From the NCBI GenBank assembly GCA_964469335.1, contig CAYXYK010000001.1, positions 78,501 through 142,500 on the forward strand: a stretch of DNA of 64,000 bases, in the 5' to 3' direction. The first letter of the stretch is position 1. Each line of letters begins with the position of its first letter. The position numbers were made by a program, and so were the translations under genes. Origin of the DNA: an uncultured Candidatus Saccharibacteria bacterium. Lineage in GTDB: Bacteria; Patescibacteriota; Minisyncoccia; Phycocordibacterales; UBA6899. This document shows, piece by piece, positions 43,147 to 64,000 of the stretch. The notes under the pieces were generated by a model. That model saw nothing but the letters and a program-made list of their open reading frames with translations, was not told the origin of the DNA and searched no databases.

Positions 43147-43151
43147 GAAAA

Positions 43152-43393: not shown

Positions 43394-43891
43394 TCAGGGT
43401 TTAATACTCCTAAAATACTCCTCTCGCTCAGCCCTAAACGCAGTAGCTCTGTGTGGGTTTAGAAGATATGCAGACTTAAGGACATAATAGCCGTTACGCT
43501 TTGCAAGAATTACGGCGTAATTTTCTTTTTCAAGCCAAATAACAACCCTACGATCACCCCTCCTTTCGTTTTCCCAAGAAGAAATCTCGGGATGACTATC
43601 GCTTGCCTGTATGATCCAAGCAATCCATCTTAACCTCTCACACCTCCGAAGGTCTGGGGTTCGCTCCGCCTCAATTTCACCCTCTGATGTTAAATGCCAA
43701 AAAGAAGAGGGCTTACCCTTATACTCGGGTTTCCTTTGCAATACCACTTTCGTGCCACGAAAAAGGAGCGCGGCGTCCCTAAGTGACTCACAATATATCG
43801 CATATAACTCTTCTTGGTATGTTTCCCAGTCTCCACCCGAGAACACCACAAGCTGTGGAGGATTCAAATCTTGTTCGTCTGCGGTTTCCAT
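43394..43891 (-). CDS. Hypothetical protein (165 aa), overlaps DUF3800-like gene by 28 nt
   Basis: METADEQDLNPPQLVVFSGGDWETYQEELYAIY...; no motif recognised; lies at GC drop. Confidence 0.4.
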   Translation of the reverse strand: METADEQDLNPPQLVVFSGGDWETYQEELYAIYCESLRDAALLFRGTKVVLQRKPEYKGKPSSFWHLTSEGEIEAERTPDLRRCERLRWIAWIIQASDSHPEISSWENERRGDRRVVIWLEKENYAVILAKRNGYYVLKSAYLLNPHRATAFRAEREEYFRSIKP

Positions 43892-44647: not shown

Positions 44648-45401
44648 ATGGGAAAAATGACGCAATCAATGCAAAAAGTAATGAACTACCTTCTCGACCT
44701 TGTAGAGTCGGAAGACTTTCAGATGCAGATCAAGAACCTTCGAAAAGAGGTCGGTATCCCCGAGAATGGACTTCCGTATATTCAAGAAGACAAGGATACA
44801 TTTCGTGGACGCTCACTCTTCTATATGCCCAAGGGCGTAACGCAAGCGCAAGCAAAGCAAGCAAATCTTGGACTAAGGGAGATCACAAAGGATTTTCCTG
44901 TTCGTGAATTAGACATCACCGTCGGCTTTCGAATGTATTTTTTTCACAATGAGTTATTCATGGACAACTTTGAAAATGGTATTTTCTTCAGTAACCTTTG
45001 TAAAATTGTTGATCTGCGGGGAGACTTTCAGGAATATGCCCCCATATATGAGGAGCGAATGGAGAATTACAAAGGAGGACTATGACAAAAAGCATAAGGA
45101 GCTCAGAGAAAAGCAGTATGATCTCGGTATGCAATTGGACGACCACACAAAGGCAGACGAAAGCTATCATATTGCCGCTTCTACAGTGCTCAGCTTAGCG
45201 AAACGTGCAGTAGAGATTTTCGAAAGTTCTGAACCTGAGGAAAAACGCGTGTTTTTGAATTATCTACTTCAGAACTCCACCGTAAACGGAAAAAACCTAA
45301 GCTACGCCTTGCGTTCTCCGTTTAATGCTATCCTCGAATTGACGACTCAACCCACTAGGGGTGCCGTAGTGTGTAGACTTCGAACCTATTTGGTCAGTTA
45401 G
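44648..45401 (+). pseudogene. Frameshifted gene (two overlapping ORFs 44648-45085 / 44949-45401); C-terminal part weakly resembles tail of large serine recombinases
   Basis: Frames switch near a C5 run (gccccc 45041-45046). Second part ...EEKRVFLNYLLQNSTVNGKNLSYAL resembles the C-terminal ENKRTLLISLGTNFILYDKEL of the recombinase at 53309. Confidence 0.35.
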
Positions 45402-48025: not shown

Positions 48026-48299
48026 GACTTAGAAATATAAGACTTGTTCTAATCCCATTGTCGGCATACAAAAAGCCCACCACGGGTAGAGACCGAAATC
48101 TCTCAATCTGGTTTCCCAGAAAGGCAGGACATGCAACCCCATGATGGGTTTGTTATGCGTGTCCTGACTTTTTCACCATGCCAATATTGCTATTGGTTTA
48201 GGCTACTGTTTCTTATTCAGTTGTACCGATACTCTAGCACAAAAAACTCTTTATTTACCAGCATTGCAACCAATATGTTGTCTGATGGGAATTAGGCAT

Positions 48300-49973
48300 A
48301 TGGTGTATTATATATTTGTGAATATACAGAAAATTATAATACACAACTTCCGAAGTATTGATGACGTAGGGATTGAGTTATCTGAATTTGGTAAGATCAA
48401 CTTATTCATCGGCAAGAATAATTGTGGGAAGTCCAACATACTCAGATTCATCCAATTGCTCGGAAACAGGACTCTCGTAAGCCAGATGAATAATGCTTCT
48501 TTAAACGGAGAATACACAATTAATCCACCTTTTCTTAGTATTGATGATCACAATGGATACCAAATTACAAAACCAATCAAATTCTCAATTTCTGCTCAAG
48601 TTACAGAGGACTTCATTGAACGTTCTTTGGGCTTAATACCAACAGACGACTTCTATGTTACTTACGAACTGAGACAGAATCAAGATTCTTTATGCTTGAT
48701 CAAGCAAACATCCAGCTTCATTAATGATTTGCCGGAAGAAACAATTAGATTATTTGAATCTACACATGCGTCCAGATTTGGTGGCTCCTCTGGTGGAACC
48801 ATTGGAGATGCGAGAAATAGAGTTTCTAATTTGCTTAAGGTGTCGAATCAGATAGGGTTTCCAGCGGTTGTGCACATGGATGAATTCAGAAAAGCAAGGG
48901 AAAACAAAGAGCTTAAGGCGAAATTAAATGAAATCGTAAATCCAGACTACACAAATCAAGCAAACATTCTTAAGAAAGAACTCTTGTGTAAATATTTTAA
49001 GGAAGTATTTGGTTTTGAAGTTGACATCAAAATTCCTAGTTTAGAAAAAGAGATAGAGTTAGTGATCGACAAAAAACAAATACCCCTCCACTCTCTTGGT
49101 GCAGGATTACAGCAAGTAGTACTAATTGCTTTTACAATAGTCACGAGTGACGCGGAGATAATATGTATTGATGAACCTGAGCTTCATATTCACCCAGCTG
49201 CACAGAGAGAGTTACTGAGCCTGATTTCAAAAATTGAGGACAAGATATTTTTTTTAGCCACACATTCAAACCACTTCTTAGACTACGAAGTGAAAAACAA
49301 AAAAGTTTTTCAACTTGTAAAGGAAGATGGGGCGACAAAAATTACCCCCAATGCAAAGACAAATTCATACAGAGAGGTACTTGATGATCTAGGAATTAGG
49401 GCAAGCGAAATTTATCAAACAAACGGAGTTTTGTGGGTTGAGGGACCGTCAGATAGAATCTATATAAAAAAATGGATTGAGCTACTTTCACCAGAGTTAG
49501 AGGAGGGATTGCAATACACTTTTCAATACTATGGCGGCAAAATTTTATCTCACTACTCAGTTGATGATCTTGAATTTAAGGAGTACCTAAACGTTCTCAA
49601 TTTAAACAGGAACGCATATGTGGTCATGGATAGTGATATGAGTAAAAAATTTTCCATACAAGACCTGAGGGATACAAAGAGAAGAATTATTACTGAATGT
49701 GAAAAAAATAAAATAGGTTATTGGATTACTGAGGGAAAGGAAATGGAGAGCTATTTAACTGATCGCCTGCTCACTGAATATGCAAAAACTAAAATTAATC
49801 GCGATATATATGCACCGATCCAAGATTATTGCCCATCTTACAATAATGACACTAAGGTCCTTTTCTCAAGGAAAATATCAACTGCGTTAACTTTGGATGA
49901 TATTTCAAACAACTTAGATTTGCACGCAAAAATTACGGAAATTATCGATCACATAATAATTTGGAATAAGTAG
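48300..49973 (+). CDS. OLD-family nuclease: N-terminal ABC-type ATPase + C-terminal Toprim domain (class-1 OLD / GajA-like)
   Basis: IQKIIIHNFRSI start region. Walker A GKNNCGKS. IDEPELHIHPAAQRELL (Walker B/D-loop/H-switch, as in AAA_21/OLD). Toprim motifs GVLWVEGPSD and YVVMDSD. Alternative upstream start 48264. Confidence 0.7.
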   Translation: MVYYIFVNIQKIIIHNFRSIDDVGIELSEFGKINLFIGKNNCGKSNILRFIQLLGNRTLVSQMNNASLNGEYTINPPFLSIDDHNGYQITKPIKFSISAQVTEDFIERSLGLIPTDDFYVTYELRQNQDSLCLIKQTSSFINDLPEETIRLFESTHASRFGGSSGGTIGDARNRVSNLLKVSNQIGFPAVVHMDEFRKARENKELKAKLNEIVNPDYTNQANILKKELLCKYFKEVFGFEVDIKIPSLEKEIELVIDKKQIPLHSLGAGLQQVVLIAFTIVTSDAEIICIDEPELHIHPAAQRELLSLISKIEDKIFFLATHSNHFLDYEVKNKKVFQLVKEDGATKITPNAKTNSYREVLDDLGIRASEIYQTNGVLWVEGPSDRIYIKKWIELLSPELEEGLQYTFQYYGGKILSHYSVDDLEFKEYLNVLNLNRNAYVVMDSDMSKKFSIQDLRDTKRRIITECEKNKIGYWITEGKEMESYLTDRLLTEYAKTKINRDIYAPIQDYCPSYNNDTKVLFSRKISTALTLDDISNNLDLHAKITEIIDHIIIWNK

Positions 49974-50005: not shown

Positions 50006-50380
50006 ATGGAAACAACCATTGAAAAATCGAATACTAACCAGATTTCAAAGCGTGGAGGCGCCCGTGTGGGGGCCGGCAGAAAGCCAAAAATGCAGTATGA
50101 GGCACGTGAACTATTCAATATGGCAGTTGATGCACGTTGGCCCTTAATCATGCAGAAAATCGACGAATTAATTCAAAAGGGAGACAAGGATATTCTCAAG
50201 ATGATTGTAGAACAACGCATTGGGAAACCCACACAAAGCGTGGCAGTAAAGAATGATGGAAATCCACGAGTTAACTACAATTTCTTTATCCAGCCCAAAG
50301 TGCAGGAGGCCGTGAGAGTGTTTGAGGACCAGCTGAAAAAAGAAATAATGCTTGAGGCTAGTACTTCTCCTCAAGATTGA
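50006..50380 (+). CDS. Small DNA-binding-type protein with N-terminal AT-hook-like Gly/Arg motif (phage small-terminase/regulator-like?)
   Basis: KRGGARVGAGRKPK motif then helical domain; 124 aa. Confidence 0.3.
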   Translation: METTIEKSNTNQISKRGGARVGAGRKPKMQYEARELFNMAVDARWPLIMQKIDELIQKGDKDILKMIVEQRIGKPTQSVAVKNDGNPRVNYNFFIQPKVQEAVRVFEDQLKKEIMLEASTSPQD

Positions 50381-50528: not shown

Positions 50529-51269
50529 GTGATGTTAATTTCTATGAACGGTGATAAAAAACATATAAGTGACGATCTCTCAGAGATACTCTACAAAGCT
50601 AGTTTAAAGAAACCTTTCAAAGATAAGGTTCAGGAAATTCGAACTGAATTCAATATCCCACCTAAGGGGTTTGTGTCTAAAAAAGAAGTAGATCTTTGGT
50701 ATTCAAAATTAGGTCAGTCTTGGCCGATGCACGAAAACTTTTATGCACGAATCGAACAATTGCCACTTGTTAAGGAGTTGCAACTTAGTGCTTCAGCCAT
50801 ACTGGCTGACTACATTCTAAGCAATGGCACGTTCAAAATATTTAATTCCACCCCATACTATTACAGTTGTGATTTTGAAGAGGTGAGTCCCTCAAAAAAA
50901 GTGAATACTGTTCTTGAAAATAGATGGAAACAATTTGGGCAACCGTTTATACGAGTTTACATACCAAGAAATGCTGGGCAACCAGCGGTTCATGAATTTA
51001 TTAAGACACACTGGAGGCTGTTCCAAGGCATACATTTCAGAAAAGCAGAATACGCAAAATCAGAAAGAAGGACCAGTTCTGATGATAAAAAAATTATCAA
51101 TGAAATTGAGAGGTGCTGGAAATTACCGCGTGAAACGCTTGGCTTAATAAAGGGCGAAAAGAGAGAAGATGGAATTGCACGGTTGATAAACTCAAAATTT
51201 AAAAAGAGTTTGTCGCCTGAAGCAGTGCGACAAAGACACCGAAGATACCGAGCGAAGGGTGACAACTAA
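50529..51269 (+). CDS. Hypothetical protein (246 aa)
   Basis: AT-rich ORF, basic C-terminus RQRHRRYRAKGDN; no motif recognised. Confidence 0.35.
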   Translation: MMLISMNGDKKHISDDLSEILYKASLKKPFKDKVQEIRTEFNIPPKGFVSKKEVDLWYSKLGQSWPMHENFYARIEQLPLVKELQLSASAILADYILSNGTFKIFNSTPYYYSCDFEEVSPSKKVNTVLENRWKQFGQPFIRVYIPRNAGQPAVHEFIKTHWRLFQGIHFRKAEYAKSERRTSSDDKKIINEIERCWKLPRETLGLIKGEKREDGIARLINSKFKKSLSPEAVRQRHRRYRAKGDN

Positions 51270-53010: not shown

Positions 53011-53220
53011 CCCAACCAATTCATTTAGTCATGCAAATCCCCAAAGTAAAACTAGATGAATTCATCCAGTTATACCAAAAACACTTTGGGGTAGTTCTCA
53101 CGCGTGATCAAGCTTTGGAAAAGGCATCTAAATTGCTCTACTTCATGCGTGTCGTTGTGGGAAGTAATTGAAATGTTAAAATGAATGAGCTAGACAAAAG
53201 ACGATCTGATGTTCACTCAA

Positions 53221-53311
53221 TTAACCTTGTACCCAAAGAGGGGCAACGACGGCTTTTGTCTAGCAACATGAGCATCAGTTCGTTGTCCCTCTTTGTGCTT
53301 TTAGGTTAATG
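53221..53311. repeat. Imperfect ~31-bp-arm inverted repeat overlapping recombinase start codon (candidate att/recombination site)
   Basis: Left arm TTAACCTTGTACCCAAAGAGGGGCAACGAC; right arm (revcomp) TTAACCTAAAAGCACAAAGAGGGACAACGAA; outer TTAACC and inner AAAGAGGGRCAACGA match; 28-nt spacer. Confidence 0.5.
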
Positions 53312-55003
53312 ATAAAAAAAATTATGAATCAGACTTCCGATAAAATCCGATATTTCCTCTATGCTCGAAAATCGAGCGAGAGTGAGGAAAAACAAGTTGC
53401 CTCGATTGATTCCCAGATCACCGAACTTGAACGCTTGGCGAAACAGTACGGACTTACTGTGGTCCGCGTATTCTCTGAATCCAAGTCTGCAAAAGCCCCA
53501 AACAATCGCCCTGTGTTTGGTGAGATGATGGAACGTCTCTATAAAGGCGAGGCTGAAGGGATTCTATGCTGGAAGCTGGACCGCCTCGCAAGAAACCCTG
53601 TCGATGGTGGAACCATCAACTGGATACTTCAAAATGGCATTGTGAAGCATATTCGCACCTTTGACCGCGAGTATCTCCCTACTGATAACGTACTGATGAT
53701 GAGCGTAGAATTTGGCATGGCAAATCAGTTCATCCGTGACCTTAGCTCGAACACCAAGAGAGGCCTGAACTCAAAAGCAGAAAAAGGGGTATTTCCGAGT
53801 CGTGCACCTATTGGATATTTAAATGATAAATACCATCCTAAAGGAGAAAAGAAAATCATTCCTGATCCTGAACGTTTTTCCATCATCCGAAAGCTCTGGG
53901 ATGAGCTCCTAGAGAAAGAATGTACGATTGATAGCCTTCACACACTTGCAACTGAAAAGTACCATCTCACTGGCTTCTATGGAAAGCCTGTCCACATAAA
54001 TGTTATATATGATATTTTCACTAATCCTTTCTATTGTGGGATGTTCAACTGGAATAAGAAAATCTGGCAAGGTACGCATGAGCCCATGATTTCAAAAGAA
54101 GAATTCGAGCGAGCACAATTAATCATCTCGGGTAAAAACAAAGGAAACAGGAAGCGAAAACATGATTTCCCTTTTGCAGGCACAATGCATTGCGGTGAGT
54201 GTGGGTGCGCAATCACCGCAGAATTTCACCGCAAGAAGCAGGTGAATGGTAATGTACATGAGTACACCTTCTATCGTTGCTCGAAGCGTAAAGGGACTGA
54301 ATGTAAGCAATCATTTGTGCGCTCAACTGAACTAGAGAAGCAAGTACTGAAAAAACTTGAGGAAGTAGAGATTCCTCGTGATTTCTCTGAATGGGCACTT
54401 GGATTGCTCCGTATTGAGACCGACAGAGAAAAGATAACACGGGATCAAATGCTGAGTAAATTTCAAAATGACTACAGTAAGTGTCTCAAGCGTATTGATA
54501 CCCTCAAGGATATGCGAATGAACCGCGAGATTGACTCGGATGAGTTTGCAAAAAGAAAAGCTGATGTTGAAACAGAGAAAGACAGCATTCGGTCTTCTAT
54601 TAACAAGCTCGACAAGCGAGTAAGTGAGCGACTGGTTGAATTTGAAGAAAAGTTTAGCTTTGCAGAAACAGCAAAGGAGAAGTTTGAAAAGAATACTGAG
54701 AACAAGCGGACACTGCTCATTTCACTGGGAACTAACTTCATTCTCTATGACAAAGAGTTGAAATTTGATTGGGAAGAGATCATGGCACAGGTTCGAACCG
54801 CATCAAAAGAAGCGAAGAAACTTCACAAAGCGTTCGAACCTATTGAAAACCGCTATACTTCAACGGATTATGCAGAAATGTACTCTGCTAGTCCGATAAT
54901 GGGTCGCCAGAGGGACGCATTCAGAACTCTCGATTGGGCGCAGATCAAGAGAGATCTTGAGGTAATCTCACCCCTTCAGCCACAGTGGCTTATTCGAGCG
55001 TAA
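53309..55003 (+). CDS. Large serine recombinase (integrase)
   Basis: IRYFLYARKSSESEEKQVASIDSQ (catalytic Ser, SxDxQ), GILCWKLDRLARN, recombinase domain, zinc ribbon CGECGCAITAEF...YRCSKRKGTEC, C-terminal coiled coil; 564 aa. Confidence 0.85.
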   Translation: MIKKIMNQTSDKIRYFLYARKSSESEEKQVASIDSQITELERLAKQYGLTVVRVFSESKSAKAPNNRPVFGEMMERLYKGEAEGILCWKLDRLARNPVDGGTINWILQNGIVKHIRTFDREYLPTDNVLMMSVEFGMANQFIRDLSSNTKRGLNSKAEKGVFPSRAPIGYLNDKYHPKGEKKIIPDPERFSIIRKLWDELLEKECTIDSLHTLATEKYHLTGFYGKPVHINVIYDIFTNPFYCGMFNWNKKIWQGTHEPMISKEEFERAQLIISGKNKGNRKRKHDFPFAGTMHCGECGCAITAEFHRKKQVNGNVHEYTFYRCSKRKGTECKQSFVRSTELEKQVLKKLEEVEIPRDFSEWALGLLRIETDREKITRDQMLSKFQNDYSKCLKRIDTLKDMRMNREIDSDEFAKRKADVETEKDSIRSSINKLDKRVSERLVEFEEKFSFAETAKEKFEKNTENKRTLLISLGTNFILYDKELKFDWEEIMAQVRTASKEAKKLHKAFEPIENRYTSTDYAEMYSASPIMGRQRDAFRTLDWAQIKRDLEVISPLQPQWLIRA

Positions 55004-55200: not shown

Positions 55201-55605
55201 TCATTTTCCTTTGTAAAAATCTTTGAACATCGAATCATCCCAGATGGACTTCGCTATGATATAAATTATACCAAGAATTTGCCCAAAAACAGAAACTGAG
55301 AGCACCTCGAGCTCATACCCGTTCAATAGGGTGAATTGATGATCTGTAAAAATTCTGACATATGACTGGATGGCAATAATTGTGAAAAGGAGAAGGAAGG
55401 ATACTACGGCTGATCCTATCGCAAAATAAAAAACTATCTTCCTCTGACCCTTTCGCTCTTCGAGTATGTTACCAACCGACTGAGGATCTGGCTGGGAAAA
55501 CTCCTCAAGGGAAGCCGCCTTGTTTGCCACTTTTTCTATCAGTGCCTCTAGCTCCGAATGCTCATCTGGAGTTAGTTTGTGTGTTTTTATTTCCTCGCGA
55601 GCCAT
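55201..55605 (-). CDS. Small membrane protein (134 aa), overlaps ImmA-like gene
   Basis: Two TM helices (IVFYFAIGSAVVSFLLLFTIIAI; ILGIIYIIAKSIW). Confidence 0.4.
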   Translation of the reverse strand: MAREEIKTHKLTPDEHSELEALIEKVANKAASLEEFSQPDPQSVGNILEERKGQRKIVFYFAIGSAVVSFLLLFTIIAIQSYVRIFTDHQFTLLNGYELEVLSVSVFGQILGIIYIIAKSIWDDSMFKDFYKGK

Positions 55606-56108
55606 TTCAGTCTGTTCTTTACAGCTATTTCAGAGACACCGAAGTACTGCGCCGCTGCGCCAATATCTCCTGTTGTTGAGATAACCTTAATAAATTGATC
55701 CTTGGGCATCAGCAGGGTCGCGGCAAAGTAGTTTGCCTCTGTCTCTTCAAGCGACTCGACTGTATTGTCTTTGTAATTAAAGGAGTCGATACGAAGTTTT
55801 TCCTGATTAGGATGGAGCAAGAAATGCCCAAGTTCGTGTGCCAACGTAAAAGTTTTCCTTGTTGGACTATAGCTGCTGTTGAGCAGTATCTTTGCTCCAC
55901 CGTTTTCCCATTTGATTACGCCGTCAATCTCTGTGTCCGCATCAGTTTTTGGAAGATCAGTAAAAAACACCTCCGCCTGAAGCTCTTTTGCGAAATCAAG
56001 CAAATTATTTTGCGGATAGGAAAGACCTGTTCGCAACTTTAAAGACTCAACCGTTTGGTCAATCTCGTTTTGTCTTTCGGGGGTTAAAAATGCCATTGTT
56101 GCAATCAT
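55587..56108 (-). CDS. ImmA/IrrE-family zinc metallopeptidase
   Basis: FTLAHELGHFLLHPNQE (HExxH) in COG2856-like context; no adjacent XRE HTH partner recognised. Confidence 0.65.
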   Translation of the reverse strand: MIATMAFLTPERQNEIDQTVESLKLRTGLSYPQNNLLDFAKELQAEVFFTDLPKTDADTEIDGVIKWENGGAKILLNSSYSPTRKTFTLAHELGHFLLHPNQEKLRIDSFNYKDNTVESLEETEANYFAATLLMPKDQFIKVISTTGDIGAAAQYFGVSEIAVKNRLKWLARK

Positions 56109-56243
56109 ACATAAAATGCATGGGAAGAAAAGGTTTCTGCCCCACACCGTAATTATCTCATTATTCTCTCACATATCCAATGAGTTCCTCCTGAACTCTT
56201 TTGCTTGATAAAATGGCTTTGTTGAGTAAAGTAAAGTAACAAC

Positions 56244-57806: not shown

Positions 57807-57849
57807 TTGATAAATCTTTAACCAACATTTACAAACACCCCTTCGCCTA

Positions 57850-57880
57850 CCCTGATGGAACAACCGTCAGGGTTGTTTTT
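57850..57880 (+). terminator. Rho-independent terminator
   Basis: CCCTGA-tggaacaaccg-TCAGGG followed by TTGTTTTT. Confidence 0.7.
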
Positions 57881-58019
57881 ATGAAAAGCGATCAGGCGAC
57901 AGTTGAATACGTAATGACACCCGAGGAGCGCGTACGGCTCTCGGAGTTTTTCAACCTGCTCCTGAAAGTGGATCAGCGGACACGCCCTGAGTTGTATTTA
58001 CAAAATAACACAAAAGACG

Positions 58020-59171
58020 ATGATTGATACGATCATTCTCACCATCCCGAGAGAGAACTTCCACATCCTTGCCGACAAAGGACGGCTCGGAACTGACTGG
58101 GAGCTCTCAGGGAAAACGGCGATGTACGAGAAGTGGGTGCGCAATCCCAAGCGAGCGCACAAAGAAACGGGTAACTATTACCCACGAATTACTGGCTACC
58201 GACGAAGCAAGACGAGCGAGTCGGCACGCATCGAGTTTTCGATCCCCAAGCTTATCTTCGGTAATAACTTGGACGAAGTCTCAGACGCTGACTTTCCCCT
58301 CATCGTGAGCACTCTTCGCGAAAGACTCTTTGAGCTTGGGGTCGTGATCACTGAGAAAGTACTTCGATCGGCAAAAGTACTTGCTTTCCATCCCTCGAAA
58401 AACATTCCCCTTTCGGGTGGGTATACCTCGTCACTCGCACTGAGGGAACTCTCAAAGATAAACCTTGCGAAACGATTTGACCTCAACAAGTCGGACTTCC
58501 GAAACTCTGGGCAAAGTCTTCAGGGATACACAATCGCTCACTCACTTGTCTTCTATGACAAAATCGCAGACCTTGCGAAACCAGAGAAGCGAGCGGTCGA
58601 CAAAGACCAGACTGCCCAGCAACCATCACTATTTCAGGAAATACAAAAGAAGACTCCTGAACTTGAAGTACTCCGCATGGAAGTACGGCTGAGTCGCAAA
58701 CAAAAAATGAACGAGGTGCTAAAAAAGATGGGATACGCAGTCGACCCCACTTTCGAAGAAGTATTTTCAAAGACACTGTGCAAGGAAATCGTCTCAGATT
58801 ACTGGGCATCATTTGTAACCGATAAAAATCTCTTTCTCTTTGACCTTGCTTCATCACCCCCACAACTTCTGCGTCGAATGCTCGCCGAGAGCATAAAGCC
58901 CAAGGAGGCAATCTACTTGATCGGGCTCACCATTCTCTCTCGAGAGGAGGGCGGTATACGTGAAGTTCGCTCAGTTATTGAAAAGAAGCACGGCATACGA
59001 GGTTGGTATCGCATTGCCGAGGGACTAAAACGCTTAAACGTAAAAACAAAGCAAAAACAGTGCCATTCTTGGGTTCGACAAGTAAGCAGTGCTATCGAAA
59101 AATTTGACTCATTTCGATTTGCACGTGCTAACGAGTTATCTACTTACCATGTAAAGCAAAGTAAAGTATGA
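58020..59171 (+). CDS. Rep-like protein (possible rolling-circle replication initiator, Rep_trans-like)
   Basis: SLVFYDKIADL (YDK) and RMEVRL (RxExR) motifs as recalled from phage/plasmid replication-initiation factors; 383 aa; stop overlaps next start (ATGA). Confidence 0.3.
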   Translation: MIDTIILTIPRENFHILADKGRLGTDWELSGKTAMYEKWVRNPKRAHKETGNYYPRITGYRRSKTSESARIEFSIPKLIFGNNLDEVSDADFPLIVSTLRERLFELGVVITEKVLRSAKVLAFHPSKNIPLSGGYTSSLALRELSKINLAKRFDLNKSDFRNSGQSLQGYTIAHSLVFYDKIADLAKPEKRAVDKDQTAQQPSLFQEIQKKTPELEVLRMEVRLSRKQKMNEVLKKMGYAVDPTFEEVFSKTLCKEIVSDYWASFVTDKNLFLFDLASSPPQLLRRMLAESIKPKEAIYLIGLTILSREEGGIREVRSVIEKKHGIRGWYRIAEGLKRLNVKTKQKQCHSWVRQVSSAIEKFDSFRFARANELSTYHVKQSKV

Positions 59172-59365
59172 TTATAGACATGAAAAAAGGAGGTTCAGAC
59201 GAGTTTTATCGCGCCGAAGAGCTCGCAGATGTGCTCAAGTTAAACATTATGACTATCTACCGCTATATCAAGGCGGGAAGATTAAAGGCATACAAGATTG
59301 GCAAAGAGTATCGGATCGACAAAACCGAGTTCCAAGCGTTTCTCAAAAAAGTAAGTACCAAATAA
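59168..59365 (+). CDS. Excisionase-family helix-turn-helix DNA-binding protein
   Basis: ELADVLKLNIMTIYRYIKAGRLKAYKIGKEYRIDKTEFQAFL typical MerR-like excisionase/Xis HTH; 65 aa; 1-nt gap to downstream helicase gene. Confidence 0.65.
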   Translation: MIIDMKKGGSDEFYRAEELADVLKLNIMTIYRYIKAGRLKAYKIGKEYRIDKTEFQAFLKKVSTK

Positions 59366-59366
59366 T

Positions 59367-62300
59367 ATGAACCACCCTAAAATAATCGACAACAACAGAA
59401 AGTTCCTCAAAGATACCCTTATCGAAGTGTCGAAGGAGTATTCTGAAATCTCTATCGCTACGGGCTACTGGGATCTTGAGGGTATGAAACTTATCCTCCC
59501 CGAGATTGAGGGGTACAAAAAAATCCGCCTTCTCATTGGACGTGAGCCGATGATCGCTCGCTATCACATGCAAATGCCTGAGCCCGATTATCCAGACAAG
59601 GACTTCAAATACGATCTCGCTGCACTCAAGCCCGACTCGTCGCTTACTGAAACAGTTGCGAAGATCAAAGAGCTCATCGAGAAAGGAACTCTTGAAGTCC
59701 GCGTCTATCGCAAAAACTTCCTTCACGCAAAGTGCTATATCTTCGGAACATACACATCCGACACTGCGGTCGGTATCATTGGCTCATCAAACTTCACAAA
59801 GAACGGACTGACGCACAACACGGAGCTGAACGCACTTGAGTCAGATCACCGCATCGTACTTTCAGAACCCAAGACTGCAACACAGGAAGTCGGACACCTC
59901 TACTGGTTTGACTCGTTTTGGAATGACGAAACCACAGAAAAATGGAATGAGGAGTTTGGGGATATTCTCTCAATGTCCACCGTAGGGCACATCACCTACA
60001 GCCCGTATGAAATGTATATGGCTACCCTTTGGCATCTCTACAAAAACGAAGTTACTGATGAGATCACTCTCTCAGCCGATGCGACAAAAAACCTCTACGC
60101 CTTCCAGCAAAGGAATGCCCAGCTACTCATAAACAAAATCGAGAAGACGGGTCTTGCCATGCTCGCTGACTCTGTTGGTCTCGGAAAGACAATCACGGCT
60201 GGGGCTGTAATCAAGCACTATCTCGAGCAAGGAGCACGCCGTATCTATGTCATTGCCCCCGCACGCCTTATCCCCCAGTGGAAAGACGATCTTGCAGACA
60301 AGCATGACATTTTTGGTGGGTATGAGCTTGTGTCGATGCAAGACATGGGTGCTATTGAAGAAGAGATGTCTCGCGACAAATACCGCAACGTTGACCTCTT
60401 TATCATCGATGAAGCCCACAACCTCCGCAACGACAACAGCACGCGGCACGTACAGATCCTTGAGTGGTTCAGCAACAACCCCGAAAGCAAGGTATTGCTT
60501 CTCACGGCAACCCCAGTCAACAACCAACTCACCGACTTTGTAAACCAAATCCAGCTTGCAAGTAAGGGCAAGCTCGACTCATTCCCCATAGTGTTCACCA
60601 CGAGCAAGAAGCGTGAAGTGATCGACTTCTTTGAAGCAGTAAAGCGCCTCGTGAGCTATATCAAAGGACAAGAAAATGCCAACGAACCCGTTGACTGGGA
60701 TCGCGTAAACAAGGTCATGCGTCAGGGTCTCAAGCACTTCCTCGTGCGCTCGACGCGCAACGGTATTATGAAGGACTTCAACGGAGGACTCCTCGGCAAC
60801 GACGGCATCATGCGAGCATTCCCAACAAGTATCGTGAAGCCGACAGAATACAGTTTCTCGGCTGAAAATGACAAAATTGTATCCGAGCAAGTCGCAACGG
60901 CAGTCTCAACAAGTTTTGAGAGCAGAGATCCTCGCTCCATCGACATCGACAAGCTCGTATCTGTTACCCAGCGCACAGAGCATCCGCTCGACACAATGAA
61001 GACGGGAGCGTTATCAAGTGAGTGCACTCAATCAGGAGTATTCACAAACCTCTTCCAAATCGTGCTTACTTTCGGGTTTGCTCCATACAAAGCTCGTATT
61101 TACGAAAACAGATTTTACGGAAAAACTCCCGACGAAATCAAGGAATACAAACTCAAGCCAAAAGAGAGCTTTGCGCTTCTGAGTCAGATCAGCATTCACA
61201 ACATCATTCGCGTGAGCTTGCTCAAGCGCCTTGAGTCTTCCCCGTACGCCCTCAAAAACTCTATCCAAAACTATCTCAACAGACTCGCCACCTTCAGTGA
61301 GTGGCTCGAGAAGGGATACATTCTTTCCTTCAAAGACATTGCCGAACTCGTCAAAGAATACGGGGATGATCTCGAGGAGATGCCAACTGATGCTCTTGAT
61401 GAGAAGATTGTTGCAGATCCAAGTGTCTACAATATCGAGGCGCTCAAGAACGACATTCTTCGTGATCAAAAAATCGCAAAGACCCTCATCGAGCTGTGTA
61501 ACGCCATCGAGAAGCACGACGACAAGCTTATCCGCTTTGTGGAACTCATAAAGGAAATAAAACAAACGACAGGAAGCAAGAAGATACTCGTCTTTAGTTT
61601 CTACGCTGACACCATCAAATACCTCGAGAAAAACCTCGGAGCGTACTTGAGCGAGTCGGAAATGAAGGAGGCATCGTTCGTTACTGGTGCAAATGCGCTC
61701 GACATCAAGCAGATCACAGGGCGCTTCTCTCCACTATCAAAAGGGTTCACTGTCGACGCAGAACATCCTGCGATTAACTATCTCTTCGCAACGGACGTGC
61801 TCTCTGAGGGACAGAACCTCCAAGACTGCCCCGTGCTCGTGAACTTCGACCTCCACTGGAACCCTGTCCGCATGATCCAACGAAACGGTCGCATCAATCG
61901 CCTTGGCTCTCAGTATGACACCGTCTATGTCTACAACATGGCACCAGAGAAGCAGCTCGAGACATACCTCAAGCTCGTGAAGCGACTCGAACAGAAGATC
62001 AACAAAATCGCACACACCATTGGCACAGATCAGTCGATACTTGGGGAGCAGGAAAATCCACTTGAATATATCGACCAAGTAGAGGACGTAAACAAAGTAA
62101 CCGAGCTCTATGACGAAGCAACTGCAAGCAAGGCACTTCTCGCCCTCGAAGACGACGCAGACTTCCTCACTGAAGATGAGTATATTTTTGAACTACGCAG
62201 TTTCCTGAAAAATAGTACCGAAAAGGAAATCGAGACGGTCAAAAATGTCGCAGTTGGAAAATGGGGCTATCTTCCCGAAGTAAGGCGGAAAGTGGTCGAG

Positions 62301-62846
62301 ACCCCCGACGTAATCGGGCTCACACAAACGATGATCCAAGAAGATGAGCAAAAGGACTTGTATCCCGTCGACATATTCGTGGAATACCAAGGTCTCGATG
62401 GAAAAGTCGAAGTAATCGATACTATCGATGCTTTAACACACATCAAAACAACTCCAGAAGACTCGAAGCGCACCACTGATGCGATCAAGACCAACAAAGA
62501 CCGTTCGTTTATCAAGAAGCTCATGGAAAGCCAAGCGGTCGAAGAGGCGACAGCTGAAGCATTAGTATTCAAAAAGACTCGTTCAGTGGAAATCGTCCTC
62601 GATGCTGTCGCAAGGGCTCTTCCTCAACTTCAGCTCAGTGCCGCACTTGATCGGATCGACTCCAAGCTCGAGCTCAAGAAAACACGAAAACTTTTCACTG
62701 AAGCAAAGGAGGACATCAAGACCTACGAGCAGTTGCGCCCGATCACACTTGAGAAGTTTGTCTCACTCGCCAAAGAACTGACGAAGGAGCAGAAGCCGCA
62801 GAAATCCGTAGACAACATCAGCACACTATTATTCTATGCAAAGTAA
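59367..62846 (+). CDS. PLD-family nuclease :: SNF2-family helicase fusion protein (1159 aa)
   Basis: N-term single HKD motif LHAKCYIFGT...VGIIGSSNFTKNGL. SNF2 motifs LADSVGLGKTITAG (I), DLFIIDEAHNLRN (II, DEAH), LLLTATPVNNQLTDF (III), QRNGRINRLGSQ (VI). Confidence 0.8.
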   Translation: MNHPKIIDNNRKFLKDTLIEVSKEYSEISIATGYWDLEGMKLILPEIEGYKKIRLLIGREPMIARYHMQMPEPDYPDKDFKYDLAALKPDSSLTETVAKIKELIEKGTLEVRVYRKNFLHAKCYIFGTYTSDTAVGIIGSSNFTKNGLTHNTELNALESDHRIVLSEPKTATQEVGHLYWFDSFWNDETTEKWNEEFGDILSMSTVGHITYSPYEMYMATLWHLYKNEVTDEITLSADATKNLYAFQQRNAQLLINKIEKTGLAMLADSVGLGKTITAGAVIKHYLEQGARRIYVIAPARLIPQWKDDLADKHDIFGGYELVSMQDMGAIEEEMSRDKYRNVDLFIIDEAHNLRNDNSTRHVQILEWFSNNPESKVLLLTATPVNNQLTDFVNQIQLASKGKLDSFPIVFTTSKKREVIDFFEAVKRLVSYIKGQENANEPVDWDRVNKVMRQGLKHFLVRSTRNGIMKDFNGGLLGNDGIMRAFPTSIVKPTEYSFSAENDKIVSEQVATAVSTSFESRDPRSIDIDKLVSVTQRTEHPLDTMKTGALSSECTQSGVFTNLFQIVLTFGFAPYKARIYENRFYGKTPDEIKEYKLKPKESFALLSQISIHNIIRVSLLKRLESSPYALKNSIQNYLNRLATFSEWLEKGYILSFKDIAELVKEYGDDLEEMPTDALDEKIVADPSVYNIEALKNDILRDQKIAKTLIELCNAIEKHDDKLIRFVELIKEIKQTTGSKKILVFSFYADTIKYLEKNLGAYLSESEMKEASFVTGANALDIKQITGRFSPLSKGFTVDAEHPAINYLFATDVLSEGQNLQDCPVLVNFDLHWNPVRMIQRNGRINRLGSQYDTVYVYNMAPEKQLETYLKLVKRLEQKINKIAHTIGTDQSILGEQENPLEYIDQVEDVNKVTELYDEATASKALLALEDDADFLTEDEYIFELRSFLKNSTEKEIETVKNVAVGKWGYLPEVRRKVVETPDVIGLTQTMIQEDEQKDLYPVDIFVEYQGLDGKVEVIDTIDALTHIKTTPEDSKRTTDAIKTNKDRSFIKKLMESQAVEEATAEALVFKKTRSVEIVLDAVARALPQLQLSAALDRIDSKLELKKTRKLFTEAKEDIKTYEQLRPITLEKFVSLAKELTKEQKPQKSVDNISTLLFYAK

Positions 62847-64000
62847 TTATCAAAATAGTATAAACGCGGCGCTCAAAGAGCTCGCTACCACAAGAAGCAT
62901 TTCTTCGGGGCTATTGGTCTGCAATGCCCTTCTTGAGCACATGGGTATCGAGACAAAGACCGTTGAAGACATTGAACTCTCAAAACTCAAGCTCCCCAAT
63001 GCGGAGCGCTATGACCGATGGTTTGATGCACACCCTCACTTTCGAGGGGATCGTGCATGTTTTGACCTTGCTCAAAAAGGCGACCTACTTGAGGCAAAGT
63101 TTTACGCCCTCCAAAAGAGATCAAAGCTTTTCATTGCAGGGAGCGTGACATTCACTCCCAACTTCGAAGACCGTGAGTACACGCGCACCGATCCGAGCAT
63201 GAAGGTAGGTATCGACTTCTTCCTGACTCCCGAAAAGGACGCTGTGATCGTCGTGCTTTCAAACAAGGGCAGTCTCAGACTCGTAGAGCTCTCGGGTAGA
63301 CTGACAAATACCCAACACGAGATATTCACAGTCTGGCACAACGTTGCAAAGCTGGCTGACAAAAATGCACTGCATACAACCATTTGGGAAAGCTTCAAGC
63401 TTTCAAGTCTCAACAAGAAGTTCTATGAGGGAATTGCAAATAGCTTCACCACCCTTACCCAGCATCTCCAGAAAGATGGGGTCGATGAACAGCTCTCAAA
63501 CCAATTCGCCAGCAGACTGCACGGAAGACTACTCTTCCTTTGGTTCTTGCGCAAGAAGCACATCATCAATGAAGCAAAGGAATACTTTACTCTTGAGGAT
63601 CAGGGCGACACCAAATACTATGCATATACGCTCAGCACTCTCTTCTTTAATGTCTTAAATAATGAAGACCATAAAGACGTCGACCCTGTCACGCCGTACC
63701 TCAACGGAGGACTCTTTGATCAGGATGCCGACGGTAAATACTGGAATACCCACAAGCCCTCATTCCCGACGGGCTTCTTCAAGACGCTCTATGACCACTT
63801 CGACTCCTTCAACTTCACCACAGATGAGTCAACACCTGAATACGAGCAGATCGCCATTGATCCTGAAATGCTCGGTCGCATCTTTGAAAGCTTCCTTGCG
63901 ACCCTCAAAACAGAGACGGGTGCACAGGCAAAGAAAGCCAACGGTGCATTCTACACCCCTCGAGAAATAGTGAGCTACATGTCTCGTGAGAGCTTACGCC
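62836..64000 (+). CDS. N6-adenine DNA methyltransferase, PglX / MmeI-like (type IIG/IIL-BREX/DISARM DrmMI-like), 5' partial (continues past window end)
   Basis: Open frame from ATG 62836 to window end with no stop (not in ORF track). PYLNGGLFDQ, IDPEMLGRIFESFLA and GAFYTPREIVSYM (motif X) are hallmarks of the PglX/MmeI family. 11-nt overlap with helicase gene. Confidence 0.75.
   Translation, partial: MQSNYQNSINAALKELATTRSISSGLLVCNALLEHMGIETKTVEDIELSKLKLPNAERYDRWFDAHPHFRGDRACFDLAQKGDLLEAKFYALQKRSKLFIAGSVTFTPNFEDREYTRTDPSMKVGIDFFLTPEKDAVIVVLSNKGSLRLVELSGRLTNTQHEIFTVWHNVAKLADKNALHTTIWESFKLSSLNKKFYEGIANSFTTLTQHLQKDGVDEQLSNQFASRLHGRLLFLWFLRKKHIINEAKEYFTLEDQGDTKYYAYTLSTLFFNVLNNEDHKDVDPVTPYLNGGLFDQDADGKYWNTHKPSFPTGFFKTLYDHFDSFNFTTDESTPEYEQIAIDPEMLGRIFESFLATLKTETGAQAKKANGAFYTPREIVSYMSRESLR

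What the first reader, a model, noticed from the sequence alone, without database searches (positions are those of the whole stretch)
58020..64000. PLD-nuclease::SNF2-helicase fusion followed by PglX/MmeI-like N6-adenine methyltransferase: partial DISARM class-1-like or BREX-related defence operon with unusual domain fusion
The 1159-aa protein joins a single-HKD PLD nuclease domain to a complete SNF2 ATPase (motifs I, II DEAH, III, VI). Its stop overlaps the start of a methyltransferase whose N-terminus carries PYLNGGLF, LGRIFESFL and GAFYTPREIV, hallmarks of the PglX/MmeI family used by BREX and DISARM. In described class 1 DISARM the PLD (DrmC) and SNF2 helicase (DrmD) are separate genes, so a DrmC-DrmD-like fusion next to a DrmMI-like methylase would be a non-canonical architecture. 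The system continues beyond the window, so DrmA/DrmB, or PglZ/BrxC, may lie downstream. The operon is preceded by a tightly coupled Rep-like gene and an excisionase-type HTH, which is also unusual.
Basis: partly seen in the sequence, partly recalled or inferred. Interest (0 to 1): 0.8.

Follow-up and report, generated by a model that had tools for sequence, protein, structure and literature searches.

The report
Two-gene helicase-nuclease plus methylase restriction system
This is a complete two-gene restriction-modification-type defence module on a mobile island, pairing a PLD-nuclease/SNF2-motor protein with an MmeI-type adenine methylase; it is widespread and already noted in the literature, though never tested, and it is not a fragment of DISARM or BREX.

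Summary
The sequence features are real. A 1159-aa protein (59367-62846) carries one HKD/PLD nuclease domain and a complete SNF2 ATPase. Its 3' end overlaps by 11 nt the start of an MmeI/Eco57I-type N6-adenine methylase, which the window end cuts off after 388 aa.

- **Not a fragment:** in 60 of 61 related loci with enough downstream sequence, from many phyla, the same methylase follows the same fusion gene directly, and nothing else is conserved. There is no DrmA/DrmB, PglZ/BrxC or DUF499. In the closest relative (94% identity) the next gene is a serine recombinase.
- **Membership fails:** scores against DrmD, DrmC and PglX family models fall far below their cut-offs.
- **Fusion not unusual:** it has thousands of homologues. 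The same gene pair was described as a putative R-M system on Lactococcus plasmid pLd8 in 2018 and again in 2023. MANTIS uses an HKD-helicase effector.

Most likely mechanism, inferred: the methylase recognises and marks short sites, and the partner supplies ATP-driven translocation and cleavage.
- The methylase N-domain has lost the MmeI D...ExK catalytic motif.
- This domain tracks the partner protein closely in sequence (r=0.96), whereas the target-recognition domain is swapped freely.

Verdict: ordinary to moderately interesting, a new member of a known but uncharacterised kind.

The parts
57849..57873 (+). Terminator-like hairpin (10 bp stem, 6 G-C pairs, T-run) after the preceding 520-aa gene. 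It is the likely upstream boundary of the operon.
   Evidence: sequence read
57881..58027 (+). Small 48-aa ORF whose stop overlaps the start of the 383-aa ORF. Function unknown. Also called as a gene in the identical contig L001.
58020..59171 (+). It is present only in the closest relatives (L001, L002) and so is not part of the conserved core.
   Evidence: no family hit; absent from L003, L004 and more distant loci
59168..59365 (+). 65-aa HTH_17 / excisionase-family DNA-binding protein. Likely the operon's transcriptional controller (inferred). It is found only in the nearest clade.
   Evidence: HTH_17 51.7 bits; TIGR01764 50.4 bits; MAD1 27.6 bits against cut-off 80; present in L002, L004, L007, L038 and the window only
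59367..62846 (+). [quoted passage not shown]
59646..59855 (+). PLD (HKD) nuclease domain, residues 94-163. H120, K122, GSSN139-142 and E153 are invariant.
60090..61907 (+). SNF2/SF2 motor, residues 242-847: Walker A GLGKT 271-275, DEAH 348-351, TATP 380-383, motif VI QRNGRINR 838-845.
62836..64000 (+). First 388 aa of the modification/specificity subunit, an MmeI/Eco57I-type gamma-class N6-adenine methylase. It overlaps the previous gene by 11 nt and is cut off by the window end. The full length is 1081 aa in the 94%-identical relative, which has NPPY at 628-631 and a TaqI_C-type recognition domain.
62836..63510 (+). Family-specific N-terminal alpha/beta domain of the methylase, residues 1-225. 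It sits where MmeI has its nuclease domain, but the D...ExK motif is degenerate (D127 kept, Glu replaced by S142, Lys not conserved). Proposed docking module for the PLD-SNF2 partner (inferred).
63511..63999 (+). Helical spacer domain (MmeI_hel/HsdM-N-like, about residues 226-320) and the start of the methylase catalytic domain, including the FYTPREIV motif.

Best explanation
The locus encodes a self-contained, two-component, ATP-dependent restriction-modification system carried on a low-GC mobile island.

- **M/S subunit:** the gene starting at 62836 encodes a roughly 1080-aa MmeI/Eco57I-type gamma-class N6-adenine methylase with its own C-terminal target-recognition domain. It is proposed to recognise a short, probably asymmetric, DNA site and methylate it to mark self DNA.
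- **R subunit:** the gene at 59367-62846 encodes a single-HKD PLD nuclease fused to a RapA-like Swi2/Snf2 motor. It is proposed to dimerise through the PLD domains to form one nuclease site, be recruited to unmethylated sites by the methylase, translocate on dsDNA using ATP, and cut.
- **Methylase N-domain:** this domain descends from, or replaces, the MmeI nuclease domain but has lost the catalytic Glu and Lys. It is proposed to act as the adaptor that binds the motor-nuclease.
- **HTH_17 gene:** the upstream gene is proposed to be the operon's controller.

Shown: gene order and coupling, domain content, conservation of catalytic residues, strict pairing across phyla, absence of any other conserved partner, a hypervariable and exchangeable recognition domain.

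Inferred: hemimethylation of an asymmetric site, complex formation through the N-domain, PLD dimerisation, translocation-coupled cleavage, and the anti-phage or anti-plasmid role.
For: 1. **Pairing.** In 60 of 61 loci with at least 1 kb of sequence downstream (window included), the methylase follows the fusion gene directly, mostly with overlapping or abutting codons. The loci come from Saccharibacteria/Patescibacteria, Actinomycetota, Bacillota, Gammaproteobacteria, Bacteroidales and Elusimicrobia. The single exception (L055) holds fragments of both genes.
2. **No third partner.** Clustering of all neighbouring ORFs finds only serine recombinases (21 loci) and prophage genes. Of the 58 large neighbour ORFs, no Pfam family occurs in more than 4.
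3. **Autonomy.** The 11.8-kb L. plantarum plasmid carries, besides replication initiation protein, RelE/ParE toxin-antitoxin and integrase genes, only HTH + SNF2-related + Eco57I-methylase as its cargo. The 15.4-kb L. cremoris plasmid pJM1F likewise carries the pair, plus a spare inverted recognition-domain cassette and an invertase.
4. **Catalytic residues.** HKD, Walker A, DEAH and motif VI are invariant in 54 homologues. NPPY and the AdoMet motif are present in relatives.
5. **N-domain.** It is confidently folded (pLDDT mostly above 85). It has no canonical D...ExK: S at position 142 in 46 of 48 sequences, K at 144 in 12 of 48. It is specific to this family, always lies at the N-terminus of proteins of about 1000-1150 aa, and has 161 representatives.
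6. **Co-variation.** Pairwise identity of the fusion protein correlates with that of the methylase N-domain at r=0.957, with the methylase core at 0.817 and with the recognition domain at 0.387. Near-identical systems carry unrelated recognition domains, for example L035/L063 with fusion 99% and recognition domain 32%.
7. **Precedent.** MANTIS MtsD is a dimeric HKD+SF2 effector forming one PLD site and acting with a hemimethylating adenine methylase (bioRxiv 10.64898/2026.09.23.753747). PMC6098607 independently proposed that the PLD-SNF2 ORF supplies restriction for a REBASE 'Type IIG' methylase that lacks a restriction domain.
Against: - No experiment exists for this family in the literature searched.
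- The window lacks the last ~690 residues of the methylase (its catalytic core after the FYTPREIV motif and the recognition domain) and everything downstream, so completeness here rests on relatives.
- The methylase N-domain keeps invariant acidic residues (E111, D112, D127, E151) and R148. A non-canonical nuclease site therefore cannot be excluded.
- The r=0.96 co-variation could reflect physical linkage and recombination breakpoints rather than a protein interface.
- In MANTIS the methylase cannot load on DNA without an AAA+ partner. Nothing shows that this methylase acts alone.
- MtsD nuclease activity itself has not been reconstituted.
Confidence: 0.6

Rival explanations
1. The methylase is an autonomous Type IIG/IIL restriction-modification enzyme like MmeI, with its own non-canonical nuclease in the N-domain. 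The PLD-SNF2 protein is an accessory or back-up effector, for example one that processively degrades DNA after a first cut.
For: - PADLOC's best model for the methylase is 'REase_MTase_IIG' (277 bits for the visible part; 496-513 bits in relatives). REBASE labels homologues Type IIG (PMC6098607).
- The N-domain lies where MmeI's nuclease lies and keeps invariant E111/D112/D127/E151.
Against: - The residues equivalent to MmeI E80 and K82 are S (46/48) and a variable residue.
- No Pfam nuclease domain is detected.
- The strict 60/61 pairing with translational coupling, and the N-domain co-varying with the partner, fit an obligate partnership better.
- The 'Type IIG' label is a prediction, not an assay.
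Confidence: 0.15
2. One reading: the window shows the start of a larger class 1 DISARM-like or BREX-related operon whose remaining genes (DrmA/DrmB, or PglZ/BrxC/BrxL) lie just beyond the window end.
For: - There is weak similarity of the fusion to DrmD models and of the methylase to PglX/DrmMI models.
- More distant PLD-helicases (about 29% identity) can sit beside DrmA + DUF1998, as in B. cereus L080.
Against: - All these scores are far below curated cut-offs.
- In L002 (94% identity) a serine recombinase follows the methylase. L003, L004 and about 55 other loci show no such genes.
Confidence: 0.03
3. A MANTIS-like system that still needs loader or activator proteins. Here these would be the unannotated 383-aa and 520-aa (and 48-aa) ORFs upstream, standing in for MtsA/MtsB.
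For: - The 48-aa, 383-aa and HTH genes are translationally coupled to the fusion gene.
- The MANTIS methylase needs MtsA and MtsB.
Against: - These ORFs have no ATPase or any other profile hit.
- They are absent from relatives whose fusion protein is 81-87% identical (L003, L004, L006, L007) and from all more distant loci.
- DUF499 and DUF3780 are not found.
Confidence: 0.07
4. Not primarily an anti-phage system. Instead it is a mobile-element maintenance or epigenetic module: either a methylase/nuclease addiction cassette that stabilises the island, or a phase-variable methylase that regulates genes, with the SNF2-PLD protein acting in DNA transactions of the element.
For: - The pair is frequently next to large serine recombinases (21 of 70 loci), and occurs within prophage-like regions and on small plasmids.
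- Some relatives carry invertible recognition-domain cassettes, as in phasevarions.
Against: - Addiction and defence are not exclusive for R-M systems.
- The window region also holds other defence-type genes: an AriA/GajA/Old-like ATPase, a DUF3800 protein matching PDC-M04A, and a CapP-like peptidase.
- Hypervariable, swapped recognition domains are the signature of selection for new restriction specificities.
Confidence: 0.1

Closest known systems
Unnamed PLD-SNF2 + 'Type IIG' methylase pair of lactococcal plasmids: pLd8 orf33/orf34 (PMC6098607). Also the 'Cj0031-like Type II R-M CDS with adjacent PLD+SNF CDS' loci of PMC9881135.
   Same: - Same two genes in the same order with the same domain content.
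- The L. cremoris pJM1F pair is 39% identical over the full length of the fusion protein.
- Its methylase hits the same PADLOC model, PDLC03601 (726 bits).
   Different: - The lactococcal versions add an inverted spare recognition-domain cassette and an invertase. Whether the window's system has one cannot be seen.
- This instance sits on a chromosomal island of an uncultured organism and has an HTH_17 gene and extra unknown ORFs upstream.
- None of these systems has been tested experimentally.
MANTIS (Gao_RL / BREX-related type 2): MtsA-MtsB-MtsC-MtsD
   Same: The effector has an N-terminal HKD/PLD nuclease and an SF2/Swi2-Snf2 ATPase, and is paired with an N6-adenine methylase that sets specificity.
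   Different: - There is no DUF499 AAA+ ATPase (MtsA) and no DUF3780 protein (MtsB) here or in relatives.
- The methylase is MmeI/Eco57I-type with a TaqI_C recognition domain, not the BrxXI-like type described for BR systems.
- Direct sequence comparison with MtsD was not possible.
Class 1 DISARM (DrmA, DrmB, DrmC, DrmD, DrmMI)
   Same: It uses a SNF2 helicase, a PLD nuclease and a large IIG-like adenine methylase.
   Different: - PLD and SNF2 are one polypeptide here.
- There is no DrmA or DUF1998.
- All equivalog scores are far below cut-off.
Type IIG/IIL enzymes of the MmeI family
   Same: - The helical spacer, the gamma-class methylase domain and the C-terminal recognition domain lie in the same order.
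- Pfam finds MmeI_Mtase, Eco57I and TaqI_C in relatives.
   Different: - The N-terminal domain lacks the catalytic Glu and Lys of the D...ExK motif.
- There is an obligatorily linked ATP-dependent motor-nuclease gene, which MmeI-type enzymes do not have.
Type ISP enzymes (LlaGI, LlaBIII)
   Same: The functional parts list is the same: nuclease + SF2 motor + gamma-class adenine methylase + recognition domain. The likely logic is translocation-coupled cleavage from asymmetric hemimethylated sites.
   Different: - Type ISP is one polypeptide with an Mrr-type nuclease. Here there are two polypeptides with a PLD nuclease.
- Neither protein's PDB sequence search returned an entry named LlaGI or LlaBIII.
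SauUSI and CglI/NgoAVII (ATP-dependent restriction enzymes with PLD nucleases)
   Same: A PLD nuclease is coupled to an SF2 helicase-like motor. One PLD active site is formed by dimerisation, as established for BfiI and SauUSI and reported for MtsD.
   Different: - SauUSI is a single protein that targets modified DNA.
- CglI has separate R and H subunits and a C5 methylase.
- The motor here is RapA-like Swi2/Snf2.

Membership tests
Class 1 DISARM | DrmA helicase and DrmB (DUF1998) encoded in the same operon | tested here: not met
   The window ends inside the methylase, so this was tested on relatives. L002, L003 and L004 show none. No recurrent neighbour beyond recombinases and prophage genes appears in 70 loci. 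The top 25 Pfam families listed for the 58 large neighbour ORFs include no DUF1998; unlisted families have at most two members.
Class 1 DISARM | SNF2 helicase that qualifies as DrmD (NCBIfam NF038317, cut-off 610 bits) | tested here: not met
   169.2 bits. The best PADLOC DrmD model gives 133 bits, partial coverage only.
Class 1 DISARM | Separate PLD protein DrmC (NF038319, cut-off 133 bits) | tested here: not met
   The PLD domain is fused to the helicase. It scores 19.8 bits.
Class 1 DISARM | DrmMI-type methylase | tested here: not met
   In full-length relatives the DrmMI models give 55-57 bits, against 482-513 bits for REase_MTase_IIG PDLC03601.
BREX (types 1-6) | PglZ phosphatase and BrxC/PglY ATPase in the operon | tested here: not met
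   Absent from relatives. The top 25 Pfam families listed for large neighbour ORFs include no PglZ, and unlisted families have at most two members. Not visible in the window itself.
BREX (types 1-6) | PglX methylase (NF033452, cut-off 500 bits) | tested here: not met
MANTIS / Gao_RL / BREX-related type 2 | DUF499 AAA+ ATPase (MtsA) and DUF3780 protein (MtsB) | tested here: not met
   No hit for the upstream ORFs of the window. None is recurrent in the relatives' neighbourhoods.
MANTIS / Gao_RL / BREX-related type 2 | Effector with an N-terminal HKD nuclease fused to a Swi2/Snf2-type ATPase | tested here: met
   Pfam finds PLDc_2 at 94-163 plus SNF2/ResIII/Helicase_C. The overall fold is RapA-like. 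This is an architecture match only, because no MtsD sequence was available. PADLOC's 'HKD+Snf2' model gives 172 bits, but that model fits a different operon type best (E. faecium, 444 bits).
Type IIG/IIL (MmeI family) | Catalytic PD-(D/E)xK endonuclease domain at the N-terminus of the same polypeptide | tested here: not met
   D127 is invariant, but the Glu position is S in 46 of 48 sequences and the Lys position is K in only 12 of 48. There is no nuclease Pfam hit. Activity through other invariant acidic residues is not excluded.
Type IIG/IIL (MmeI family) | Helical spacer + gamma-class N6-adenine methylase (NPPY) + C-terminal recognition domain | tested here: met
   In relatives: MmeI_Mtase, Eco57I, TaqI_C, and NPPY at 628-631. 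MmeI_hel is found in family members. A profile hit to the MmeI spacer gives 22.6 bits. In the window only the first 388 aa can be seen.
Type ISP (LlaGI-like) | Single polypeptide: Mrr nuclease - SF2 motor - methylase - recognition domain | tested here: not met
   There are two polypeptides and a PLD nuclease instead of Mrr. Neither PDB sequence search returned an entry named LlaGI or LlaBIII.
PLD-SNF2 + IIG-like methylase pair (pLd8 orf33/34 type; unnamed) | Adjacent, co-oriented genes for a PLD+SNF2+Helicase_C protein and an Eco57I/TaqI_C methylase without a recognisable restriction domain | tested here: met
   The window ORFs meet this. The homologous pairs on L. cremoris pJM1F and the L. 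plantarum plasmid are 38-39% identical over the full length. The description is in PMC6098607.

The most novel reading that the evidence does not exclude
The family would be a distinct, still unnamed class of two-component ATP-dependent restriction-modification system, in effect a 'split Type ISP with a PLD nuclease'. An MmeI-type methylase would have lost its own nuclease and turned that domain into an adaptor for a PLD-Swi2/Snf2 motor-nuclease. Unlike MANTIS or BREX, it would need no AAA+ loader.

A corollary follows. At least three REBASE/PADLOC 'Type IIG' families (PDLC03601, 03628, 03598) would be mislabelled, because each is really the M/S subunit of such a system.
Probability: 0.4. Interest if true: 0.55.

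Novelty: new member of a known kind. Interest (0 to 1): 0.35.

Why it matters
- **Mechanism.** If the two-gene reading holds, this is the smallest version of the 'methylase sets specificity, helicase-nuclease restricts' logic shared by MANTIS, DISARM and Type ISP enzymes. It would be a simple model for asking how a methylase hands unmodified sites to a motor-nuclease without an AAA+ loader.
- **Annotation.** Current tools would call the methylase a single-gene Type IIG system and ignore its partner. Methylases next to more distant PLD-helicases match other 'Type IIG' models at near full length.
- **This window.** The practical message is that the locus is complete and ordinary. It is not a truncated exotic DISARM or BREX variant.

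Tried and rejected
- The exact-match look-up of the fusion protein returned only a 7.5-kb contig ending at the same gene, so the true downstream sequence of this genome could not be read.
- The homologue search with the truncated methylase returned only fragments (all listed hits 677 aa or shorter). These were useful for the N-domain alignment but not for full-length context.
- I first assumed that PADLOC model PDLC01075 'C3a139 HKD+Snf2' stood for the MANTIS/Gao_RL effector. I rejected this because the model fits best (444 bits, end to end) a PLD-helicase from an HTH/DUF4391/Mod/DEAD-helicase operon of E. faecium. Which PADLOC system the model belongs to remains unknown to me.
- No family or solved relative was found for the 383-aa ORF in Pfam, NCBIfam, PADLOC, PHROGs or PDB sequences, nor for the 520-aa ORF in the four profile libraries. 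'Rep-like' is dropped.
- The MADS link was considered because the HTH hits mad1. It was rejected: the score is 27.6 bits against a cut-off of 80, and the weak mad2 hits of relatives' methylases (about 40 bits) rank far below the IIG models.
- Literature searches for a name or an experimental test of this gene pair found only descriptive mentions.

Full report
**1. What is in the sequence**

The ORF map of 52-64 kb and the raw sequence show a tightly packed plus-strand operon. It begins after a strong terminator-like hairpin at 57849-57873.

| Coordinates | Product | Junction |
|---|---|---|
| 57881-58027 | 48 aa | stop overlaps the next start |
| 58020-59171 | 383 aa | stop overlaps the next start (ATGA) |
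| 59168-59365 | 65 aa | next gene starts 1 nt after the stop |
| 59367-62846 | 1159 aa | overlapped by 11 nt |
| 62836-64000 | 388 aa visible | runs off the window end |

The 1159-aa protein has one PLDc_2 domain (residues 94-163), ResIII/SNF2-rel_dom (242-470) and Helicase_C (727-847). In alignments of 10 and of 54 homologues the HKD residues (H120, K122, GSSN139-142, E153) and helicase motifs I, II (DEAH), III and VI are invariant.

Its AlphaFold model (mean pLDDT 77.8) is most similar over its whole length to RapA, followed by eukaryotic Snf2 remodellers.

It is 94% identical over all 388 residues to a full-length 1081-aa protein on metagenomic contig L002.

The one descriptive label that fails is 'Rep-like'. 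The 383-aa ORF has no hit in Pfam, NCBIfam, PADLOC, PHROGs or PDB sequences.

**2. What lies downstream: evidence from relatives**

The exact protein is on record only on a short contig and on a 409-kb NCBI contig that could not be fetched. I therefore used relatives.

- **L002** (fusion 94% identical): a 1081-aa methylase with Eco57I, MmeI_Mtase and TaqI_C domains, then a large serine recombinase whose start overlaps the methylase stop.
- **L003** (83%): a 1034-aa methylase, followed by unrelated genes on both strands.
- **L004** (87%): a 1074-aa methylase, then a 180-aa ORF and an AAA_13 ATPase that match a different candidate system.

A scan of one genome per species gave 70 loci. They come from Saccharibacteria and other Patescibacteria, Actinomycetota, Bacillota (Streptococcus, Lactococcus, Enterococcus, Clostridia), Gammaproteobacteria, Bacteroidales and Elusimicrobia.

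- An HMM of the methylase finds it directly after the fusion gene in 60 of the 61 loci (window included) that have at least 1 kb of sequence downstream.
- In 57 of the 60 the genes overlap or lie within 11 nt of each other. L023 and L068 have gaps of 261 and 1812 nt.
- The single exception, L055, contains fragments of both genes.
- Clustering all neighbouring ORFs finds no other conserved partner. The only recurrent families are large serine recombinases (21 loci) and, in Saccharibacteria, prophage genes (ParB-methylase, small and large terminase).
- A Pfam scan of all 58 neighbouring ORFs of 550 aa or more shows no family in more than four of them. The top 25 of the 78 families matched include no DUF1998, PglZ or DUF499, and unlisted families have at most two member ORFs.
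- The HTH_17 gene is confined to the nearest clade. The 383-aa and 520-aa ORFs occur only in L001, L002 and the window.

Two complete small plasmids make the case for autonomy.

- An 11.8-kb L. plantarum plasmid carries, besides replication initiation protein, RelE/ParE toxin-antitoxin and integrase genes, only an HTH gene, the SNF2-related gene and the Eco57I-type methylase.
- The 15.4-kb L. cremoris plasmid pJM1F carries the pair plus an inverted TaqI_C cassette and an Mpi-type invertase. A 321-nt inverted repeat links the methylase 3' part to that cassette.

**3. Tests of membership**

| Model | Score (bits) | Cut-off (bits) |
|---|---|---|
| NCBIfam DrmD | 169 | 610 |
| Second DrmD model (NF038318) | 108 | 950 |
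| DrmC | 19.8 | 133 |
| 'phospholipase D-like anti-phage protein' | 145 | 1100 |
| BREX-1 PglX (full-length relative) | 81 | 500 |

- In PADLOC the methylase is claimed by 'REase_MTase_IIG' PDLC03601: 277 bits for the visible 388 aa and 482-513 bits for full-length relatives. PglX and DrmMI models give 55-92 bits.
- The HTH's hit to MADS mad1 is below cut-off (27.6 against 80).
- The fusion's best PADLOC model is 'C3a139 HKD+Snf2' (172 bits, collinear over nearly the full length). That model fits best (444 bits) a PLD-helicase from a different operon type, HTH/PLD-helicase/DUF4391/Mod-like methylase/DEAD helicase, in E. faecium. It is therefore a superfamily-level match only.

The locus is thus not a member of DISARM, BREX, MADS or MANTIS as these are defined.

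**4. The methylase N-terminal domain**

Residues 1-225 have no Pfam hit. Residues of about 226-300 are the MmeI helical spacer: Pfam MmeI_hel and DUF7814 hit family members, and a profile hit to MmeI residues 192-264 scores 22.6 bits.

The AlphaFold model of the visible 388 aa is confident up to about residue 320.

- Foldseek found nothing.

By position, and by the beta-hairpin 'GID127FF...VVLS142NK', the domain corresponds to the MmeI nuclease hairpin 'FVD70LF...LIE80MK82'. The MmeI sequence there is from my memory of the published enzyme, so this is a lead and not a test.

In 48 full-length family members D127 is invariant. The Glu position is Ser in 46. The Lys position is R in 19, K in 12, N in 6, E in 6 and another residue in the remaining few. 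The canonical catalytic triad is therefore absent.

Other residues are invariant (N109, E111, D112, G125, R148, T159, H180, W184) or nearly so (E151), so the domain is under strong selection for some function.

A full-library search shows that the domain is specific to this family. It has 161 representatives at 50% clustering, and in all full-length hits it sits at the N-terminus of proteins of about 970-1150 aa.

**5. Co-variation and specificity switching**

Across 46 loci I correlated pairwise identity of the fusion protein with that of three methylase regions.

| Methylase region | Pearson r | Spearman |
|---|---|---|
| N-domain | 0.957 | 0.934 |
| Spacer + catalytic region | 0.817 | 0.630 |
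| C-terminal recognition domain | 0.387 | 0.095 |

- Systems with nearly identical motor-nucleases carry unrelated recognition domains: L035/L063 at 99% against 32%, and L009/L053 at 96% against 22%.
- Some relatives keep spare inverted recognition-domain cassettes: L052, L062 and pJM1F.
- This pattern is expected of an R-M specificity subunit under diversifying selection.
- The N-domain result fits an interface with the partner. Physical linkage to the adjacent gene is an alternative cause.

**6. What is already known**

- **PMC6098607 (2018)** described the same pair on L. lactis plasmid pLd8: orf33 with PLD+SNF2+Helicase_C, and orf34 as a REBASE 'Type IIG' methylase in which 'no restriction domain was found'. 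It proposed that orf33 supplies restriction and noted the resemblance to class 1 DISARM domains.
- **PMC5608340** reported a Prevotella locus with an upstream SNF2 helicase and IIG-like genes. One of those genes alone produced m6A at GGYGAB in E. coli. Homology to the present family was not checked.
- **PMC12839542** defined BREX-related type-2 systems whose effector is HKD + Swi2/Snf2.
- **The MANTIS preprint** showed that such an effector (MtsD) is a dimer with one PLD site. It also showed that restriction needs the HKD, both ATPases and the methylase-containing MtsABC complex, although cleavage has not been reconstituted.

I found no name and no experiment for the two-gene family.

More distant PLD-helicases (25-29% identity) also form two-gene pairs with large methylases, in Rathayibacter, Pelobacter and the archaeon Halorussus. 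The Rathayibacter and Pelobacter methylases match other PADLOC 'Type IIG' models at near full length (831 and 952 bits); the Halorussus methylase matches such models only partially (at most 138 bits). The 'Type IIG' label may therefore hide partnered systems more widely.

**7. Mechanism proposed**

- **Shown:** operon structure, domain content, intact catalytic motifs, obligate pairing, no third component, an exchangeable recognition domain, and a degenerate nuclease motif in the methylase.
- **Inferred from established knowledge** of MmeI/PglX-type methylases, of single-HKD nucleases (Nuc, BfiI, SauUSI, MtsD) and of Type ISP/III enzymes and MANTIS:
  - The methylase recognises a short asymmetric site and methylates one strand.
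  - On unmodified DNA it recruits or activates a dimer of the PLD-SNF2 protein through its N-domain.
  - The motor translocates on dsDNA at the cost of ATP.
  - The single PLD site cuts both strands in turn, perhaps preferentially when complexes from inversely oriented sites meet.
- **The HTH_17 protein** is probably a controller that times expression on entry into a new host. A recombination-directionality role is possible, given the neighbouring serine recombinase at 53309-55003.

I put this reading at about 0.6. The main rival is an autonomous Type IIG enzyme with an accessory motor-nuclease (0.15).

**8. Context and verdict**

GC content falls from about 0.55 to 0.36-0.49 at about 38 kb. 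The low-GC part holds a large serine recombinase, a recombinase fragment, an AriA/GajA/Old-like ATPase, a DUF3800 protein matching PDC-M04A, and a CapP-like M78 peptidase. It is a mobile, defence-rich island.

The finding is a real and complete two-gene R-M-like module. The DISARM/BREX reading and the claim of an unusual fusion do not hold. It is a new member of a kind that has been described but never characterised, so interest is moderate to low (0.35).

The most novel reading still open is a distinct loader-free 'split Type ISP with PLD nuclease' class, hidden under Type IIG annotations. I put it at about 0.4 probability.

Noticed in passing
window 48088-48204 (-): A LOOT RNA (Rfam RF03000) scores 70.1 bits against a gathering score of 46.4. 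It lies in the intergenic region just upstream of the AAA_15/AAA_21 ATPase gene.
   Followed up: no
window 1-38000 versus 38000-64000: GC content drops from about 0.55 to 0.36-0.49 at roughly 38 kb. The finding therefore lies in a foreign, low-GC island whose right end is beyond the window.
   Followed up: partly
window 48264-49973 (+), with 50006-50380 and 50529-51269: A 569-aa AAA_15/AAA_21 ATPase resembles AriA, GajA and Old ATPases (PADLOC 98, 80 and 76 bits). It is followed by two small ORFs without family hits and may be a separate defence system.
   Followed up: partly
window 43864-44565 (-) and 55587-56147 (-): A DUF3800 protein matches PADLOC candidate PDC-M04A end to end (286 bits). 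An M78 peptidase resembles CapP (84 bits). A DUF3800 gene also flanks the system in relative L002.
   Followed up: no
window 53309-55003 (+) and 44949-45401 (+): There is a large serine recombinase (Resolvase + Recombinase + Zn_ribbon_recom) and a 150-aa fragment that clusters with recombinases. A near-perfect palindrome lies at 53046-53075, upstream of the intact gene.
   Followed up: no
window 38461-39796 and 41701-43169: A 211-nt stretch is duplicated at 79% identity (38461 and 39151), each copy followed by a 90%-identical 50-nt hairpin-containing repeat (39092 and 39747). A 45-nt motif is also repeated at the 5' ends of three minus-strand genes (41701, 42468, 43125).
   Followed up: no
L076 (pJM1F) 7794-8114 / 9259-9579; L052 16630-17559 (-); L062 14005-15003 (-): Some relatives carry a spare, inverted recognition-domain cassette directly after the methylase. 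On pJM1F an Mpi-type invertase and a 321-nt inverted repeat accompany it. This looks like phase-variable specificity switching.
   Followed up: partly
L078 (Rathayibacter plasmid), L082 (Pelobacter pPRO1), L083 (Halorussus plasmid): More distant PLD-helicases (25-27% identity) also sit in two-gene pairs with large methylases. The Rathayibacter and Pelobacter methylases match other PADLOC 'Type IIG' models at near full length (PDLC03598 at 831 bits, PDLC03628 at 952 bits). In the archaeon Halorussus the gene order is reversed and the methylase matches IIG models only partially, at 138 bits at most.
   Followed up: partly
L081 (E. faecium plasmid) 8743-17855; L080 (B. cereus plasmid) 4131-17873: A related PLD-helicase (29% identity; best fit to PADLOC 'C3a139 HKD+Snf2' at 444 bits) sits in an operon with DUF4391, a site-specific DNA methylase and a DEAD/DEAH helicase. 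In B. cereus the operon lies directly after DrmA and a DUF1998 protein.
   Followed up: no
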